The notes: generated by a model not told the origin, from the letters alone. A stretch of DNA of 64,000 nt from Octopus vulgaris (GCA_951406725.2 OX597836.1:41292001-41356000); one strand, 5' to 3'. Positions 2,862 to 59,377 are shown, counted from the stretch's first letter. Program-made: numbers and translations.

Positions 2862-3059
2862 AGTAAATGCCCAACAAAAACGAAGAGCAAACACAAGAAA
2901 AATAACAACAATGCGAGAACGTGGTACAAGCAAATTATTAGCAGACGCTCAGGGAAGGAAAGAAAGGTGGTTTTACGTTTCGAGCAAAGCTCCTCTTCAG
3001 AAATAGGAGACAGAGGAAAGTCCAAGAGAAAAGGAAGACGGAGGAAAAAAAGCGCCAAA
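2862..3059 (-). mobile_element. Short (~200 bp) hammerhead-containing element, family A
   Basis: Homologous to 16242-16441, 18633-18836 and 36734-36937; flanked by (TA)n/(TACA)n. Confidence 0.75.
2970..3004 (-). ncRNA. Minimal type I hammerhead ribozyme motif (family A)
   Basis: Minus strand reads UUU-CUGAAGA-G-GAGC(UUU)GCUC-GAAA-CG-UA^AAA: canonical core and ACGU palindromic helix III. Confidence 0.7.
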
Positions 3060-3097
3060 TACATACATACATACATACATACATACATACATACATA

Positions 3098-3395
3098 CAA
3101 TGGCCCCGTGGTCAGGGCAGCGGACTCGCGGTCGTAGGACGCGGTTTCGATTCCCAGACCGGGCGTCGTGAGTGTTTATTGAGCGAAAACACCCAGAAGC
3201 TCCATGAGGCCCCGGCATGGAGTGGTGGCGAACCCTGCTGTACTCTTTCGGCACAACATTCCCTCACTCTTTCTTCTGTTGGCCTGCTCGCTTAGCCAGC
3301 GGGGTGGCGTCATTTGAAGGCTAAAACAATGCGAAGCGCATTGTGACCAGCGATGTGTAGCAACATCTGAAAGACTGGTCGGTCACGGTGATCAC
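3098..3395 (+). mobile_element. tRNA-derived SINE family 2, tail type a
   Basis: A box TGGCCCCGTGG, B-box-like GTTTCGATTCC; ends in GGTCACGGTGATCAC; tail shared with 34499-34727, 41064-41188 and 49745-49982. Confidence 0.8.
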
Positions 3396-3407
3396 ATACA
3401 TACATAT

Positions 3408-3811
3408 ACTCTTTACTCTTTTACTCGTTTCAGTCATTTGACTGCGGCCATGCTGGAGCACCGCCTTTAGTCGAGCAAATCGACCCGGGACTTATTCTTT
3501 GTAAGCCCAGTACTTATTCTATCGGTCTCTTTTGCCGAACCGCTAAGTGATGGGGGACGTAAACACACCAGCATCGGTTGTCAAGCAATGCTAGGGGGAC
3601 AAACACAGACACACAAACACACACACATATATATATATATACATATATACGACCGGCTTCTTTCAGTTTCCGTCTACCAAATCCACTCACAAAGCATTGG
3701 TCGGCTCGGGGCTATAGCAGAAGACACTTGCCCAAGATGCCACGCAGTGGGACTGAACCTGGAACCATGTGGTTGGTTAGCAAGCTACTTACCACACAGC
3801 CACTCCTGCGC
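3408..3811 (-). mobile_element. tRNA-derived SINE family 1 (internal TA/TG microsatellite, AAAAGAGT tail)
   Basis: Head GCGCAGGAGTGGCTGTGTGG...GGTTCAGTCCC; about 20 similar copies in the window. Confidence 0.9.
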
Positions 3812-4524
3812 ATGTGTGTGTGTGTGTGCGTCTATGTGTATGTGTGTGTATGTATGGATGTGTGGTATGAACATTTTTCTGTATGTGCGAATATGCATGT
3901 GTGCGTGTCTGGCTGTGAGTGCATATAATGTGTGTATATGTGTGTGTCGGCTGTGTTGAAGGATGTGTATGGTGTTGTGTCGTTATCCTGTGTAGATATG
4001 TGCGGATGTGTGGCAGGGTGTGTGTTCGTGTGTGTCGATTTCATTGTTTAGAATTGTGCTATTGTGATTCTTACTGTATTGTGTAGGTGTTGGTTGAGAC
4101 TTATATGTGTGGATGTGTGTGTGTGGTTTGTATGATTTTATGTATGTGGCGCTCCTGTATGCATGTATGTGTAAATGACTTACGGCTACGTATAGGTGTG
4201 ATTGGAGTGTTGATGGAGGTGTCGTAGGAGTGCTAAGGAGTGTCCCTGTGTGTATGTGCCTATGACATCGCTATCTATGTGACCAGAAAAAAGTGGTAAT
4301 TTGTACGAGTGTGTATTGGTTCATATATGTATGCGGGATGCATGAGATTATGGATGTGTATATGTGACAAGTCGGTATGTGTGTGTGTGTGTGTGTGTGT
4401 GTGTGTGTGTGTGTGTGTGTGTGTGTGTGTGTGTGTGTGTGTGTGTGTGTGTGTGTGTCTGTGTGTGTCTGTGTGTGTGAAGTGATGGTAAGTGTGTTAA
4501 AGAAAAAGAGCAAACAAGTTTAAG

Positions 4525-5400
4525 TGGTTAAATCAGTGTAGGGCCAAAGTTTGAAAAATGAAGATGAGTTTTAGTTCACGTAGGAGACGAGAGTCTGGAA
4601 AAAGCTGCGTGAGGCTACCTCGAGCATGGAGAGATAAAGACTGGTCTGTAGTGAGGAAATGGTGTACCACAGGAAGTAATTACCAAGACTGATATTCCGG
4701 AAGTACTCGATGAATCGGTCAAACAAGCGTCATCTGAATTGTCCGCTGTATAGAGAATTGTAGTAGAAGCATTTTATGCAGTAAATAGAATTAGCACAGG
4801 TTCAGATAAAGAAGTCGTTTATTTCGAAAAGCTGGTAGTTGCGTCATGTAATAAGGATAGTGTTGGAGAAGAAGGGATAAGCGTGGTTGCAGAGGTGTGC
4901 GCGAAGAAGGGATTCAGTTTATATATCGGAAAGGCGCAGGTAAGGAAGGAGATACGAACCATTATTTCATGTAGATTATAGGCACATTGAGGAGAGCAGG
5001 ATGAGTTGGAAATATGTCAGAAGTGGTAAAGTCGGAAGAGAGGATTCGGAATATGTGTGGTGTTGTGCTTTCAGGGACGGTAGGGAAGTAGGAACTAAAG
5101 GTGGTTGTGGGTGCCGTCGACTTCACTGGTGATGATAAGAATGACTTAGACTATGGTATGTGGGGGGAACTATCCACGTCAAGCGAAGTGTTGTACTATG
5201 TATCGAGAGTGTGTCTAAGAATCGTGGTCGCAGATGCAGCGACAGTGGAGGATAGGAATTGAGGGTAGCGGATAATGCATTTGGTATGAGTGAAGTAAGA
5301 TGAGGTGAAGTCGAGATAAGAGTACTAGTCAGTTGGTTTGGGAAAAATAGAAGTACCAGGGTGAGATAAACAGGACGGATCAATATATATTTAACAAAGA
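4525..5400 (-). pseudogene. Degenerate Penelope-like element (GIY-YIG C-terminal remnant)
   Basis: Minus-strand translation near 4770-4690 gives SLYSGQFR*RLFDRFIEY (compare YIGQT.RRL..RF.EH). Near 4600-4525 it gives RLLRELKLIFIFQTLALH*FN (compare R...E...I...TL.P.GLN). Many stops. Confidence 0.6.
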
Positions 5401-5468
5401 ATTTATTTATTTATTTATTTTTATACTTTCATTCTTCTATTGCAACCCTAACCATTACCCCTGTGATG

Positions 5469-5851
5469 AAGTTAAGTTAAGTTAACTTAAGTTAAGTTAA
5501 CTTAATTTTTTGGCTCAAAAAGCAAAAAGCAAGGCCATGTAGGAGGACACGGAGTTATGTACAGGGAGGGTGTTCATGCAAAGAGTTCAGGCCATTTCTG
5601 GTCAAGAGAGACTTTGAACCGAGTGGTCGTCGGCATCTTCACTATCTCGTCCGGCAGCTTATTCCACGGGTCCGCAACCCGGACGGAGAAAGCCCTTCTC
5701 CTTCGATTGAGATGAAATCGTCGCAGATATAGCTTTTCGGAGTGACCCCGCAACTGACGCTCTTGAGCAGGAGTGAAGAACAGCTCTTTCGAGAGGTTAC
5801 ACTTTCCGCTTATGATGTTGTGAGCGAGAATGAGATCACCACGGCGTCGTC
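5469..5851 (-). mobile_element. CR1-clade LINE 3' end (truncated)
   Basis: Encodes RRRRGDLILAHNII...RGHSEKLY...FSVRVADPWNKLP; near-identical to 56975-57330; (AACTT)n tail. Confidence 0.85.
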
Positions 5852-57560: not shown

Positions 57561-57926
57561 ATGACTGCTGATCAACAAAAACAGTTGTCTTGGAATATTC
57601 TAGACAGAGAGACACGCAAACAGGTTTCAGGATTTGATCAGAGTCCAAAATATTTCGGATTTATAACTGAGACTTGCTCTTCTTATCTTTTATCTTTTCC
57701 TTGTTTCAGTCATTGAACTTGCACTAATACAAGGGACCCATACTGAAGGGTTTAGTCGAGCAATTCGCCCCCAGAACTTCTTTTTAAGTTTGGTGATTTT
57801 TCTTGGCTGGACCACGAAGTTATGGGGGACGTAAACAAAGCGACACCGATTGAATAGCAGTGGTGGCGGGACAAACACACACGCACATAATTATATATAC
57901 ATATATATATATATATGTATAAATAA

Positions 57927-58155
57927 GGCGGCGAGCTGGCAGAAACGTTAGCACGCCGGGTGAAATGCTTAGCGGTATTTCGTCTGCAGCTACGTTCTGA
58001 GTTCAAATTCCGCCGAGGTCGACTCTGCCTTTCATCCTTTCGGGATCGATAAATAAATTACCAGTTACGCACTGGAGTGGATGTAATCGACTTAATCCCT
58101 TTGTCTGTCCTTGTTTGTCCCCTCTATGTTTAGTCCCTTGTGGGCAATAAAGAAA
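57927..58155 (+). mobile_element. SINE family 3, monomer
   Basis: Complete head, core and AATAAAGAAAT tail. Confidence 0.85.
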
Positions 58156-58219
58156 TATATATATATATATATATATATATATATATATATATATATATAT
58201 ATATATATATATATGTGTA

Positions 58220-58546
58220 TAATGACCCCCTTCGGTCATGACTGACCGTGGGATTTCACCAAGAAAGTTACTCACCAGGCACAAGTCCGAGTGAGGCTGT
58301 TTACGGAAGACCAGCAGTGGGCCATGCATACCGGCCTCCACTCTCCACGCCACCAGTGTTATCCAAGGGAAAGGCAAAGGTCGATACAGCTTGGCACCAG
58401 TGACATCACAACTCATTTCTACAGCTGAGTGAACTGGAGCAACGTGAAACAAAGTGTCTTGCTCAAGAACACAACACGCAGCCCGGTCCGGGATTCGAAC
58501 TCACAACCTCACGATCGTAAGCTCGACGCTCTAACCACTGAGCCGT
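58220..58546 (-). mobile_element. CORE-like tRNA SINE with a further distinct tail
   Basis: GGCTCAGTGGTTAGAGCG...GAGTTCGAATCCC head and TTGAGCAAGACACTT core. Confidence 0.75.
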
Positions 58547-59043
58547 GAGATAAATACGATATGAACGGGCTTTCAAGCAGTTTCTATCTACTATATTCAC
58601 TCACAAGGCATTGGCCGACACAAAGCTGAAGTAGAAGACACTTGCCCAAGGTGCTGTGCAGTAGGACTGAACACGGCACCGTGGTTGCAAAGCTATCTTC
58701 TTAACCACACAGCCATGTCATTGCCTATAGCCATGCCTGTATAAGTATTTTAATATATTTCTGTGTCAATAATAATTTCGCCTGTTTATAGCTGGTCCAG
58801 CGCATCTCTCTCCAGTGTTGACCACAGTCAATTTCTTCTAGAAAAAGAGAAAGAAACCCCCAGTACTTGACTTCTAACTATCAAGAGGCCTATATGTATA
58901 CTATACCCACGCAAATGTCTCTCTCTCTCTCTCTTTCTCTCTCTCTCTCTCTCTCTCTCTCTCTTTCTATTTTTATAGAACTATACCCGATGTTTCAGGA
59001 GTGTAACATCACACCCTTATATGTTTGGAGAACTCAGATGTTT

Positions 59044-59132
59044 TTTCGGTTGATGAGTACGGGTCACTTATATTTACTGCAATATTTGCAGCCTTAATAA
59101 AGATGTCTTCGTACGAAACAATTGTACCGAAA
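59044..59132 (+). ncRNA. Type I hammerhead motif with extended helix II (C3U variant)
   Basis: UUUCGG-UUGAUGA-GUACGGG[~44 nt]UUCGUAC-GAAA-CAAUUG-UA^CCGAAA. Confidence 0.7.
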
Positions 59133-59333
59133 TATTGATCCATTCTTGTTGTTTTTTTCTTATTTATAATCATCCCGCATTATCTTATGGTTAATACCAT
59201 ATAGATTTCTGGTGCATCTTAGTTAAGTACCGCATTCATGTGAATTCAACAGAACTCACTTGAATCTTAATATATATATATATATATATATATAGTAAGG
59301 AGAGACACACAAATAAGAAAGAAGAAAGCAAAG

Positions 59334-59377
59334 GACCACTGATGCGGTCTCAGGAGTGTGACGAAAGAACTCTGGCC
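59334..59377 (+). ncRNA. Degenerate hammerhead motif
   Basis: CCA-CUGAUGC-G-GUCUCA(GGAG)UGUGAC-GAAA-GAAC-UC^UGG; A9 is changed. Confidence 0.45.

What the first reader, a model, noticed from the sequence alone, without database searches (positions are those of the whole stretch)
2862..59377. Many distinct small hammerhead-ribozyme elements, mostly in (TA)n tracts
Seen: about a dozen type I hammerhead motifs (helix I - CUGANGA - helix II - GAAA - palindrome - UH - helix I'). They lie at 2970, 16306, 18734, 36837 (family A), 18968, 36635 (B), 32320/32402, 55838 (C), 16788 (D), 48546, 59044 and 59334. Most sit in 150-300 bp ORF-less units bounded by (TA)n. Helix I differs between types yet pairs (GUUU/AAAC, UCUUU/AAAGA, AGAUAA/UUAUCU, UACCA/UGGUA, UGCAUCAC/GUGAUGCA, UUUCGG/CCGAAA). 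Known: Penelope-like elements carry minimal hammerheads with palindromic helix III in their pseudo-LTRs, thought to cleave as dimers, and retrozymes are non-autonomous hammerhead elements. Inference: a diverse, high-copy, microsatellite-associated non-autonomous system mobilised by PLE RT/GIY-YIG; two PLE remnants lie in this window. I cannot tell whether it has been described for this lineage.
Basis: partly seen in the sequence, partly recalled or inferred. Interest (0 to 1): 0.85.

Follow-up and report, generated by a model that had tools for sequence, protein, structure and literature searches.

The report
Penelope tail hammerheads, some rewired

Summary
All 13 listed motifs are present within 1 nt of the stated places. 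A strict descriptor finds 5 in the window against 0.05 in shuffles. Type D (16788) has no family and stays doubtful. Solo minimal hammerheads from truncated PLEs and (TA)n targeting are published, so the listed motifs are known in kind. Only family A behaves as a unit-length non-autonomous element. No window family forms retrozyme arrays. One is the 3' end of the published octopus Naiad, described as lacking a canonical hammerhead. Two belong to ORF-less units of about 0.8 kb. This scan noted both the PLE-tail reading and the split-core fold before on other DNA, and those notes gave me the lead. Cleavage is untested.

The parts
947..2755 (-). 5'-truncated PLE ORF (RT C-terminus, CxCx5C linker, GIY-YIG), Hydra-type; long AT-rich 3' UTR runs out of the window; its own type I hammerhead lies about 1.3 kb before base 1
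   Evidence: (19,072 first-look candidates); no Pfam hit
2862..3058 (-). Diverged family A relative (A2); motif 2971-3003, helix I only 3 pairs, H17 at 2974
   Evidence: (77% to A, 83% to a copy in L302)
4545..5354 (-). Decayed Neptune-type PLE remnant (RT thumb and GIY-YIG, with stops and frameshifts)
6362..6450 (+).
10538..10775 (+). Broken family C copy (helix II and GAAA lost) with a short inverted piece
10829..11085 (-). K3: 3' end of the Naiad PLE; split-core fold 10979-10909, predicted cut after A10956
   Evidence: matches the ends of Naiad_Obim and Naiad_Ovul in the supplement of PMC8557442 (compared by eye)
16240..16441 (+). Family A unit (Neptune-type pseudo-LTR); motif 16306-16340, U4C, H17 at 16336
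16474..16650 (+). Family A copy with the GAAA, helix III and cleavage site deleted
16681..16880 (-). Type D: doubtful motif 16788-16831; no family and no parent found; TA-side end is a family H tail
18632..18837 (-). Family A unit; motif 18734-18768 with perfect core, H17 at 18738
18909..19135 (+). Family B unit (3' end of a Neptune-type PLE); motif 18968-19005, A6U
32218..32491 (-). Family C unit (3' end of a Hydra-type PLE), motif 32320-32382(-), with an inverted partial copy holding motif 32402-32461(+)
34125..34486 (-). Decayed K1 copy; split-core fold about 34304-34233 with GAAA mutated
36535..36709 (-). Family B unit; motif 36635-36672 with two core mismatches
36734..36938 (-). Family A unit; motif 36837-36871, U4C
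41334..41645 (+). K1: 3' part of an ORF-less unit of about 0.8 kb; split-core fold 41448-41520, predicted cut after C41469
48490..48690 (-). Type E (3' part of a Hydra-type PLE); motif 48546-48685 with a 105-nt helix II region; not in a TA tract
54572..54641 (-). 70-nt 3' stub of family A without the hammerhead
55763..55923 (-). Older family C copy; motif 55837-55899, GAAA mutated
58968..59270 (+). Type F (3' end of a Hydra-type PLE); motif 59044-59132, H17 at 59126
59295..59449 (+). Type G (3' part of a PLE with a CX4CxxC linker and GIY-YIG); motif 59333-59377, A9C, non-palindromic helix III
60301..60710 (+). K2: 3' part of an ORF-less unit of about 0.78 kb; split-core fold 60500-60577, predicted cut after U60526 (just outside the finding's range)

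Best explanation
The motifs are hammerhead folds in the 3' ends (pseudo-LTRs) of several Penelope-like element families whose longer copies carry RT or GIY-YIG reading frames, and they were likely left as short stubs when target-primed copying began at the element's fixed 3' end, usually in a (TA)n tract, and stopped early. Shown: the motifs, the family structure, fixed 3' and variable 5' ends, the links to reading frames for A, B, C, E, F, G in this genome and for K3 in the published Naiad consensus, TA adjacency, and inverted partial copies such as 32218-32491. Inferred: the endonuclease nicks (TA)n and the RNA's UA-rich end anneals there (the A parent's pseudo-LTR is followed by TATATA at its tandem junction); inverted pairs arise during insertion; the type I motifs, with a 2-8 nt self-complementary helix III, would cleave only as dimers in tandem transcripts, so solo stubs are likely passive. 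Family A likely amplified in trans as a 215-nt RNA that starts at a transcription start inside the pseudo-LTR. K1 and K2 are likely non-autonomous PLE derivatives. The split-core folds of K1, K2 and K3 have full helices I, II and III plus a fourth helix and are predicted to cleave in cis as monomers.
For: Shuffle control 5 against 0.05. First-look candidates in the genome: A 3,464, B 1,425, C 1,355, E 1,601, F 2,695, G 1,204, K1 3,826 (lower bounds). Links to ORFs: A directly upstream of the 5' region and ORF in 12 of 30 loci found with the ORF's N-terminal part (RVT_1 E 4e-4); B 3 of 25 loci reach a GIY-YIG end; C 9 of 25 reach the RT/GIY-YIG ORF; F 4 of 25 (counts include the locus that gave the protein; GIY-YIG E 3.5e-5 for F); E 4 of 38 reach the last codons, one with linker and GIY-YIG remains; G 2 of 40 plus one bystander. 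(TA)4 near the 3' end: A 24 of 29, B 17 of 24, C 22 of 24, F 23 of 24, K1 23 of 29, against 7-12% of random windows. A 13-nt target duplication flanks one A copy (L005). Extra nucleotide after A9, G10.1-C11.1 and palindromic helix III match the min-HHR of PMC4209133, which also reports most motifs as single elements from truncated PLEs. Two F motifs co-fold into the double hammerhead. A: 0 of 26 unselected copies extend more than 2 nt past the 5' limit, though the parent's sequence continues upstream. Split core: 3 against 0.005 in 200 shuffles; 13 of 24 pairs change on both sides in 17 K1-type copies against 4.6 in shuffles.
Against: G and E are weakly or not TA-linked: 7 of 24 and 3 of 24. 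Pfam support for the parent proteins is mostly below the curated cut-offs and absent for four frames; clade labels rest on linker motifs read by eye, not on a tree. For A the downstream pseudo-LTR behind a GIY-YIG end was not seen, because the loci stop short. Monomer folding energies are unremarkable (z from -2.4 to +1.1), and two A motifs co-fold into a long duplex, not the double hammerhead. Core substitutions are fixed in large subfamilies (U4C in A and C, A6U in B, A9C in 22 of 25 G copies), so some may not cleave at all. No parent ORF was found for K1 (0 of 39 loci), K2 or H; their PLE origin rests on layout. D does not fit.
Confidence: 0.88

Rival explanations
1. One reading: the units are one diverse system of short non-autonomous, retrozyme-like elements that replicate through their own small circular RNAs and only borrow PLE enzymes.
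For: A has a fixed length of about 215 nt. K1 and K2 are ORF-less units with terminal repeats or a tail equal to their start. A true 359-bp tandem array with a canonical hammerhead exists elsewhere in the genome (L033).
Against: B, C, E, F and G run back into reading frames with a spread of 5' ends. The head-to-tail junction expected for A has 0 exact matches in the genome (one pattern only). No window family showed two consecutive complete units in the loci examined.
Confidence: 0.08
2. The split-core folds of K1, K2 and K3 are conserved RNA structures that do not cleave; they serve as a protein-binding or template signal, or need a protein to hold the open core shut.
For: No cleavage data. 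The chain is broken inside the core, which PMC10085705 assumes cannot happen. Nearest-neighbour folding does not favour them (it cannot model pseudoknots). 13 of 30 close K1 copies fail the descriptor. K2 could also pair helix II weakly with the bases after the core (G.U-rich), which would make it an ordinary type-SGC.
Against: All 13 core nucleotides, A15.1-U16.1, a non-G at 17 and G10.1-C11.1 are kept in three sequence-unrelated window families and, by eye, in Naiad ends from octopus, coral and an acanthocephalan. Such conservation is hard to explain without catalysis.
Confidence: 0.3
3. Family A's fixed 5' end is not an RNA start but a preferred stop or joining point during copying of full-length RNA, for instance through microhomology of its AT-rich start with the (TA)n target.
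For: The 5' limit is AT-rich and resembles the flanking microsatellite. Five chimeras join the ORF's N-terminal part to the same point (L229, L231/L237, L240, L262, L264). One of 30 pattern-selected copies extends 11 nt further.
Against: 0 of 26 unselected copies pass the limit by more than 2 nt, whereas the related family B has long extensions in 5-6 of 25 loci.
Confidence: 0.25
4. The motifs are chance matches in microsatellite-rich DNA.
For: The descriptor is short; loose versions give background (0.43 split-core hits of any score per shuffle). D may be such a case.
Against: 5 against 0.05 and 3 against 0.005; families of thousands of copies with the motif as a conserved part.
Confidence: 0.01

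Closest known systems
Minimal type I hammerheads (min-HHR) in pLTRs of metazoan PLEs (Cervera and De la Pena 2014, PMC4209133; read parts 1-2 of 4: abstract, results, discussion, start of methods)
   Same: Type I order, extra nucleotide after A9 (A, B, G), G10.1-C11.1, palindromic helix III, many unrelated families per genome, mostly single motifs from truncated PLEs, pairs on opposite strands.
   Different: Octopus-like host not named in the parts read; helix II regions of 58 nt (F), 105 nt (E) and 85 nt (window ORF family); fixed U4C, A6U and A9C subfamilies; extra U before G12 in C.
EN+ Penelope-like elements: Neptune, Hydra and Naiad clades (Craig et al. 2021, PMC8557442; read passages, section 11, supplement metadata and passages of File S5)
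   Same: RT plus GIY-YIG; CxCx5C linker in the C, F, E parents and the window ORF (Hydra description); CxxC before GIY-YIG in B and G parents; pseudo-LTRs, inverted copies, tails, (TA)n preference. K3 is the end of Naiad_Obim and Naiad_Ovul.
   Different: The paper reports no canonical hammerhead in Naiads and flags Naiad_Ovul as 'HHR_half_core'; here the whole core is present in a rearranged order.
Non-LTR retrozymes (Cervera and De la Pena 2020, PMC7229834, passages; Li et al. 2026, bioRxiv 10.64898/2026.07.22.740005, parts 1-3 of 5)
   Same: ORF-less, type I hammerhead, derived from PLE pseudo-LTRs; monomers are described. A 359-bp array elsewhere in this genome fits.
   Different: Defined by tandem units with complete hammerheads; the window's units are solo or inverted and most continue into PLE ORFs.
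Type-SGC hammerheads, HRIMA-1 and variants (Eckert et al. 2023, PMC10085705; read passages and section 13)
   Same: Block order S, G, C; short linker between the helix I and helix II strands; an extra helix; all core nucleotides kept.
   Different: There block C (CUGAnGA with its adjacent helix I and II strands) is assumed unbroken and the RNAs come from metatranscriptomes; here the 10.x strand of helix II lies 60-70 nt upstream, the chain opens between A9 and G10.1, and the motif is in genomic retroelements.

Membership tests
min-HHR of metazoan PLE pLTRs | Type I order with CUGANGA, GAAA, UH and helices I and II | tested here: met
   5 strict hits against 0.05; A, B, C, E, F, G, H fit with listed variants; D does not fit well
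min-HHR of metazoan PLE pLTRs | Very short, self-complementary helix III | tested here: met
   Perfect palindromes in A, B, E, F; central mismatch in C, H; not palindromic in G
min-HHR of metazoan PLE pLTRs | Extra nucleotide between A9 and 10.1, and G10.1-C11.1 | tested here: inconclusive
   Both in A, B, G; F has G-C without the extra base; C has an extra U before G12; E starts with A.G; H with A-U
min-HHR of metazoan PLE pLTRs | Lies in the terminal repeat of a PLE | tested here: met
   A, B, C, E, F, G linked to RT or GIY-YIG frames; not shown for D or H
min-HHR of metazoan PLE pLTRs | Weak cleavage as a dimer, none as a monomer | not testable with these tools
   Co-folding gives the double hammerhead for F but not for A
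EN+ PLE (Neptune, Hydra types) | RT and C-terminal GIY-YIG with clade linker | tested here: met
   Translations and tblastn; Pfam RVT_1 or GIY-YIG weak; no tree built, clade names from linker motifs
EN+ PLE (Neptune, Hydra types) | Partial tandem or inverted insertions with tails | tested here: met
   Upstream pseudo-LTR in 12 of 30 A-parent loci; inverted partial copies in C, E, F, G; tails in G and K1
EN+ PLE (Neptune, Hydra types) | Preference for (TA)n targets | tested here: met
   71-96% of A, B, C, F, K1 copies against 7-12% background; G 29%, E 13%
Naiad clade | K3 is the 3' end of a Naiad with N-terminal GIY-YIG | tested here: met
   By-eye match to the ends of Naiad_Obim and Naiad_Ovul; a coding Naiad copy was not sought in this genome
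Non-LTR retrozyme | Two or more consecutive tandem units, each with a complete hammerhead | tested here: not met
   No such array for any window family in the loci examined; K2 relatives have only a short terminal repeat
Non-LTR retrozyme | No coding parent sequence attached | tested here: not met
   Not met for B, C, E, F, G; met for solo A, K1 (0 of 39) and K2
Non-LTR retrozyme | Accumulates as small circular RNA | not testable with these tools
   Only assembled contigs were on offer
Type-SGC hammerhead | Blocks in the order S, G, C with all core nucleotides | tested here: met
   K1, K2, K3; shuffles; covariation
Type-SGC hammerhead | Block C unbroken: helix II strand follows CUGAnGA directly | tested here: not met
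   In K1 and K3 the bases after the core cannot pair with the strand before GAAA, while an upstream strand pairs with 5-6 pairs; K2 allows a weak G.U-rich alternative
Type-SGC hammerhead | Site-specific self-cleavage | not testable with these tools
   No raw RNA reads available

The most novel reading that the evidence does not exclude
The K1, K2 and K3 folds are active hammerhead ribozymes of a topology outside the six published permutations: S-G-C order with the backbone open between A9 and G10.1, held by a fourth helix that joins helix III through a kink-turn-like bend. They are the ribozyme that Naiad elements were reported to lack, cleave as monomers where ordinary PLE hammerheads need dimers, number roughly 5,000-50,000 intact copies in this genome, and also ride on ORF-less 0.8-kb elements that form a new kind of non-autonomous PLE passenger.
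Probability: 0.62. Interest if true: 0.75.

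Novelty: new variant of a known kind. Interest (0 to 1): 0.52.

Why it matters
They show how dense hammerheads are in this genome (18 strict type I hits in a 580-kb sample, roughly 50,000-90,000 genome-wide) and that subfamilies with core substitutions still amplified, which bears on the open question of whether PLE hammerheads need to cleave. 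The split-core fold matters more. If it cleaves, it breaks an explicit assumption of the current hammerhead permutation scheme, explains the 'half core' flagged in Naiads, and means standard searches miss a large class of genomic ribozymes. A 70-80 nt transcript would test it.

Tried and rejected
Rfam scan at E up to 10: the 150 rows shown are microsatellite matches to miRNA families and 455 rows were not shown, so it says nothing on hammerheads. The repeat finder was swamped by simple repeats. First motif scan without the extra base after A9 found 1 motif. Head-to-tail junction pattern for A: 0 matches. The window ORF 947-2755 as parent of A: rejected, no hammerhead within 1.5 kb of the ORF end in 25 of 25 loci, and its own lies about 2.3 kb downstream. 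A2 at 2970 as terminal repeat of the 4545-5354 remnant: possible by strand and distance, not shown. Splicing as cause of A's 5' limit: the chimeric junctions do not fall at GT. G and E as ORF-less units: suspected, rejected. Circularly permuted (type II-like) scan: 0 hits. Upstream-extension figures used loose scoring and include microsatellite noise; I relied on the translated frames instead. The apparent 1,500-nt extension shared by K1 loci L280 and L294 is a duplicated flank. The family A core pattern was faulty and was redone. RNA: no RNA holder listed; contigs of four runs guessed to be RNA cover K1 but cannot show ends or cleavage. Lunse et al. 2016/17 on PLE hammerhead variants is not held; I saw only its title in a reference list, and it may already describe some core variants. 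Searches that found no description of octopus PLE hammerheads or of the split core: (open-access library only; Repbase and Dfam not searchable). Two motifs of K1 and one of K2 were not found in the PMC8557442 supplement, which was cut when read. Look-ups of earlier findings by sequence and near this place returned nothing.

Full report
Setting. The window is G000:C23:41292001-41356000 of a 2.8-Gb genome. It is packed with microsatellites and short interspersed repeats. I call it octopus-like because one element matches published octopus Naiad ends.

Observation. A strict type I descriptor finds 5 in the window against 0.05 in 60 local dinucleotide shuffles, and 9 against 0.35 in a first 180-kb genome sample. 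Only 18734 is textbook; the others carry core variants or decay. Type D (16788) has two core mismatches and only 5 weak partial matches elsewhere, and I do not count it as confirmed. (TA)4 lies beside 11 of the 12 units, on both sides of 6. Both PLE remnants exist, 947-2755(-) and 4545-5354(-).

What the families are. Each type except D has over a thousand first-look candidates in the genome. Their 3' ends are fixed and abut (TA)4 in 24 of 29 A, 17 of 24 B, 22 of 24 C and 23 of 24 F copies, but only 7 of 24 G and 3 of 24 E copies; random windows give 7-12%. These loci are the best matches to each query, not a random draw. The 5' ends vary and lead into PLE reading frames. F reaches a GIY-YIG end about 1.1 kb upstream (Pfam E 3.5e-5). 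C reaches a 439-aa RT plus GIY-YIG frame, with matching frames in 9 of 25 loci. B reaches a Neptune-type GIY-YIG end in 3 of 25. E reaches the last codons of a frame in 4 of 38 loci, one with linker and GIY-YIG remains that align weakly with the C parent (E 3e-4). G reaches an RT thumb, CX4CxxC linker and GIY-YIG in 2 of 40 loci and one bystander. A lies directly upstream of the 5' region and ORF of a Neptune-type element in 12 of 30 loci. The C, E and F parents and the window ORF have the CxC(x5C) linker described for the Hydra clade; these labels come from motifs, not a tree. Inverted partial copies like 32218-32491 recur in C, E, F and G. The window ORF has its own, different hammerhead 1.3 kb outside the window.

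Family A is the exception. None of 26 unselected copies (13 sample, 7 bystander, 6 window) extends more than 2 nt past a fixed 5' point, though the parent continues upstream. The likeliest reading is a short transcript from a start inside the pseudo-LTR, copied in trans; PLE starts lie in the pseudo-LTR according to passages of PMC6765202 and PMC8557442. A preferred joining point is the rival. No head-to-tail A junction was found with the one pattern tried.

Mechanism. Inferred from the anatomy and known PLE biology: the endonuclease nicks (TA)n; the RNA end, which is followed by TATATA at the A parent's tandem junction, primes copying; early stops leave 150-300 bp stubs that include the hammerhead because it sits about 70-140 nt from the end. 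One A copy has a 13-nt target duplication. With helix III reduced to a short palindrome, these motifs would cleave only as dimers (PMC4209133). Co-folding gives that dimer for F but not for A. Core substitutions are fixed in subfamilies: U4C in 27 of 28 scored top A motifs (query-biased; 3 of 6 sample motifs have the perfect core) and 25 of 25 top C copies, A6U in B, A9C in 22 of 25 G copies. PMC3088659 reports that U4C lowers activity in vitro yet allows viroid infectivity and that A6C is slow. Cleavage may therefore be weak or dispensable for amplification.

Comparison. PMC4209133 already describes thousands of such motifs per genome, in many families, mostly single and tied to truncated PLEs. 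PMC8557442 describes (TA)n targeting and inverted copies. Retrozymes are defined by tandem units and were recently traced to pseudo-LTRs; the window families do not meet that definition, though a 359-bp array with 7 canonical motifs lies elsewhere in the genome (L033). In 58 stretches of 10 kb at fixed round positions there are 18 strict type I hits, 7 of them in that array, which scales to roughly 50,000-90,000. The window is a few-fold richer, in line with its doubled TA density. I found no paper on these motifs in octopus, but the library is open-access only and Lunse et al. is not held.

Split-core folds. Earlier notes of this scan reported a rearranged hammerhead on other pieces of this genome; that was my lead, and I tested it here. 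A scan for the order helix II strand, extra helix, helix III strand with UH, helix I strand, helix II strand with GAAA and helix III, extra helix, helix I strand, CUGANGA gives three hits in the window: K1 41448-41520(+), K2 60500-60577(+), K3 10979-10909(-), all with perfect cores and G10.1-C11.1. At score 20 or more, 200 shuffles average 0.005; at any score 0.43. A decayed K1 copy lies at about 34304-34233. Nine distinct helix combinations among 30 hits use several pair types at most positions, with A15.1-U16.1 invariant, but the scan demands pairing and one combination is a mis-parse. In alignments of K1-type copies 12 of 24 pairs (7 rows) and 13 of 24 (17 rows, two rows shifted by one column) change on both sides, above all 500 shuffles and all slid controls; related rows inflate such counts. 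17 of 30 close K1 copies pass the descriptor. The junction of helix III and the extra helix has a 3-nt bulge and tandem G.A pairs in K1 and the Naiad consensus; the name kink-turn is recalled, not tool-tested. The 580-kb sample holds 4 intact hits, about 19,000 genome-wide with a wide range (5,000-50,000).

K3 matches the 3' ends of Naiad_Obim and Naiad_Ovul, the latter flagged 'HHR_half_core'. Of 14 Naiad ends viewed by eye, 4 show the split core (two octopus, the coral Amil, the acanthocephalan Plae), 1 looks like plain SGC with U3-A8 (spider Sdum), 1 is partial (Esco) and 8 show none in the 420-600 nt shown. K1 has 3,826 candidates; none of 39 loci reaches an ORF, two begin at the same point after (TA)n, and that start recurs as a tail behind the 3' (TA)n in five others. 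Two K2 relatives are 0.78-kb ORF-less units with a short terminal repeat. PMC10085705 assumes that CUGAnGA and its adjacent helix strands cannot be separated; K1 and K3 break that assumption, while K2 allows a weak alternative. Searches for such a topology found nothing. No cleavage or RNA-end evidence could be had.

Verdict. The listed motifs are real and known in kind (about 0.2-0.25 alone). The stretch also holds a likely new hammerhead variant tied to Naiads and to ORF-less units, which lifts the score to 0.52. Supplements of the bioRxiv preprint were closed and the PMC8557442 supplement was cut when read; either could bear on prior description.

Noticed in passing
L033:2200-4600 (G000:C1:20002200-20004600): Tandem array of a 359-bp unit with a canonical type I hammerhead, 5 copies on one strand and 2 inverted, nearly identical: a young non-LTR retrozyme.
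   Followed up: partly
L031:8659(-), 1.3 kb before the window: Type I hammerhead with an 85-nt helix II region at the end of the 2.3-kb 3' UTR of the window's Hydra-type PLE.
   Followed up: partly
L229, L231/L237, L240, L262, L264: Chimeras that join the N-terminal part of the Neptune-type ORF to the 5' limit of family A, with junctions clustered within about 100 nt of the ORF.
   Followed up: partly
L248, L249, L253, L257: A subfamily of the A parent whose pseudo-LTR has a different sequence upstream of the shared part.
   Followed up: no
window 34786-34960: Perfect CUGAUGA core followed by a small hairpin and a GAA lacking one A; no relative among the loci held. Possibly a decayed hammerhead.
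   Followed up: partly
window 63969(-): CCGACGA core near the window end without a partner GAAA; unexplained.
   Followed up: no
window 9486-10559(-), 48061-48390(-), 43490-44749(+), 57055-57660(-): Remnants of other non-LTR retrotransposons; 43490-44749 has RT C-terminus and C2H2 zinc fingers.
   Followed up: no
window 42962-43297(+): Mariner-type HTH fragment (Pfam HTH_48).
   Followed up: no
window 30793-31792, 37446-37982, 8978-9431: Tandem arrays of a 184-241 bp short interspersed repeat.
   Followed up: no
L036, L037, L038, L306, L334: At least five more type I hammerhead families in the genome sample that are absent from the window.
   Followed up: no
L043, L090, L161, L216, L311:5985-6070, L008, L220: Further split-core subfamilies with compensatory changes; K1 and K2 units share a splice-donor-like GTAAGT near their start and often CACGTG further in.
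   Followed up: partly
PMC8557442 supplement, ends of Naiad_CGi, Sglo, Olur, Pmar: Bivalve Naiad ends share a different conserved structured motif without GAAA.
   Followed up: no
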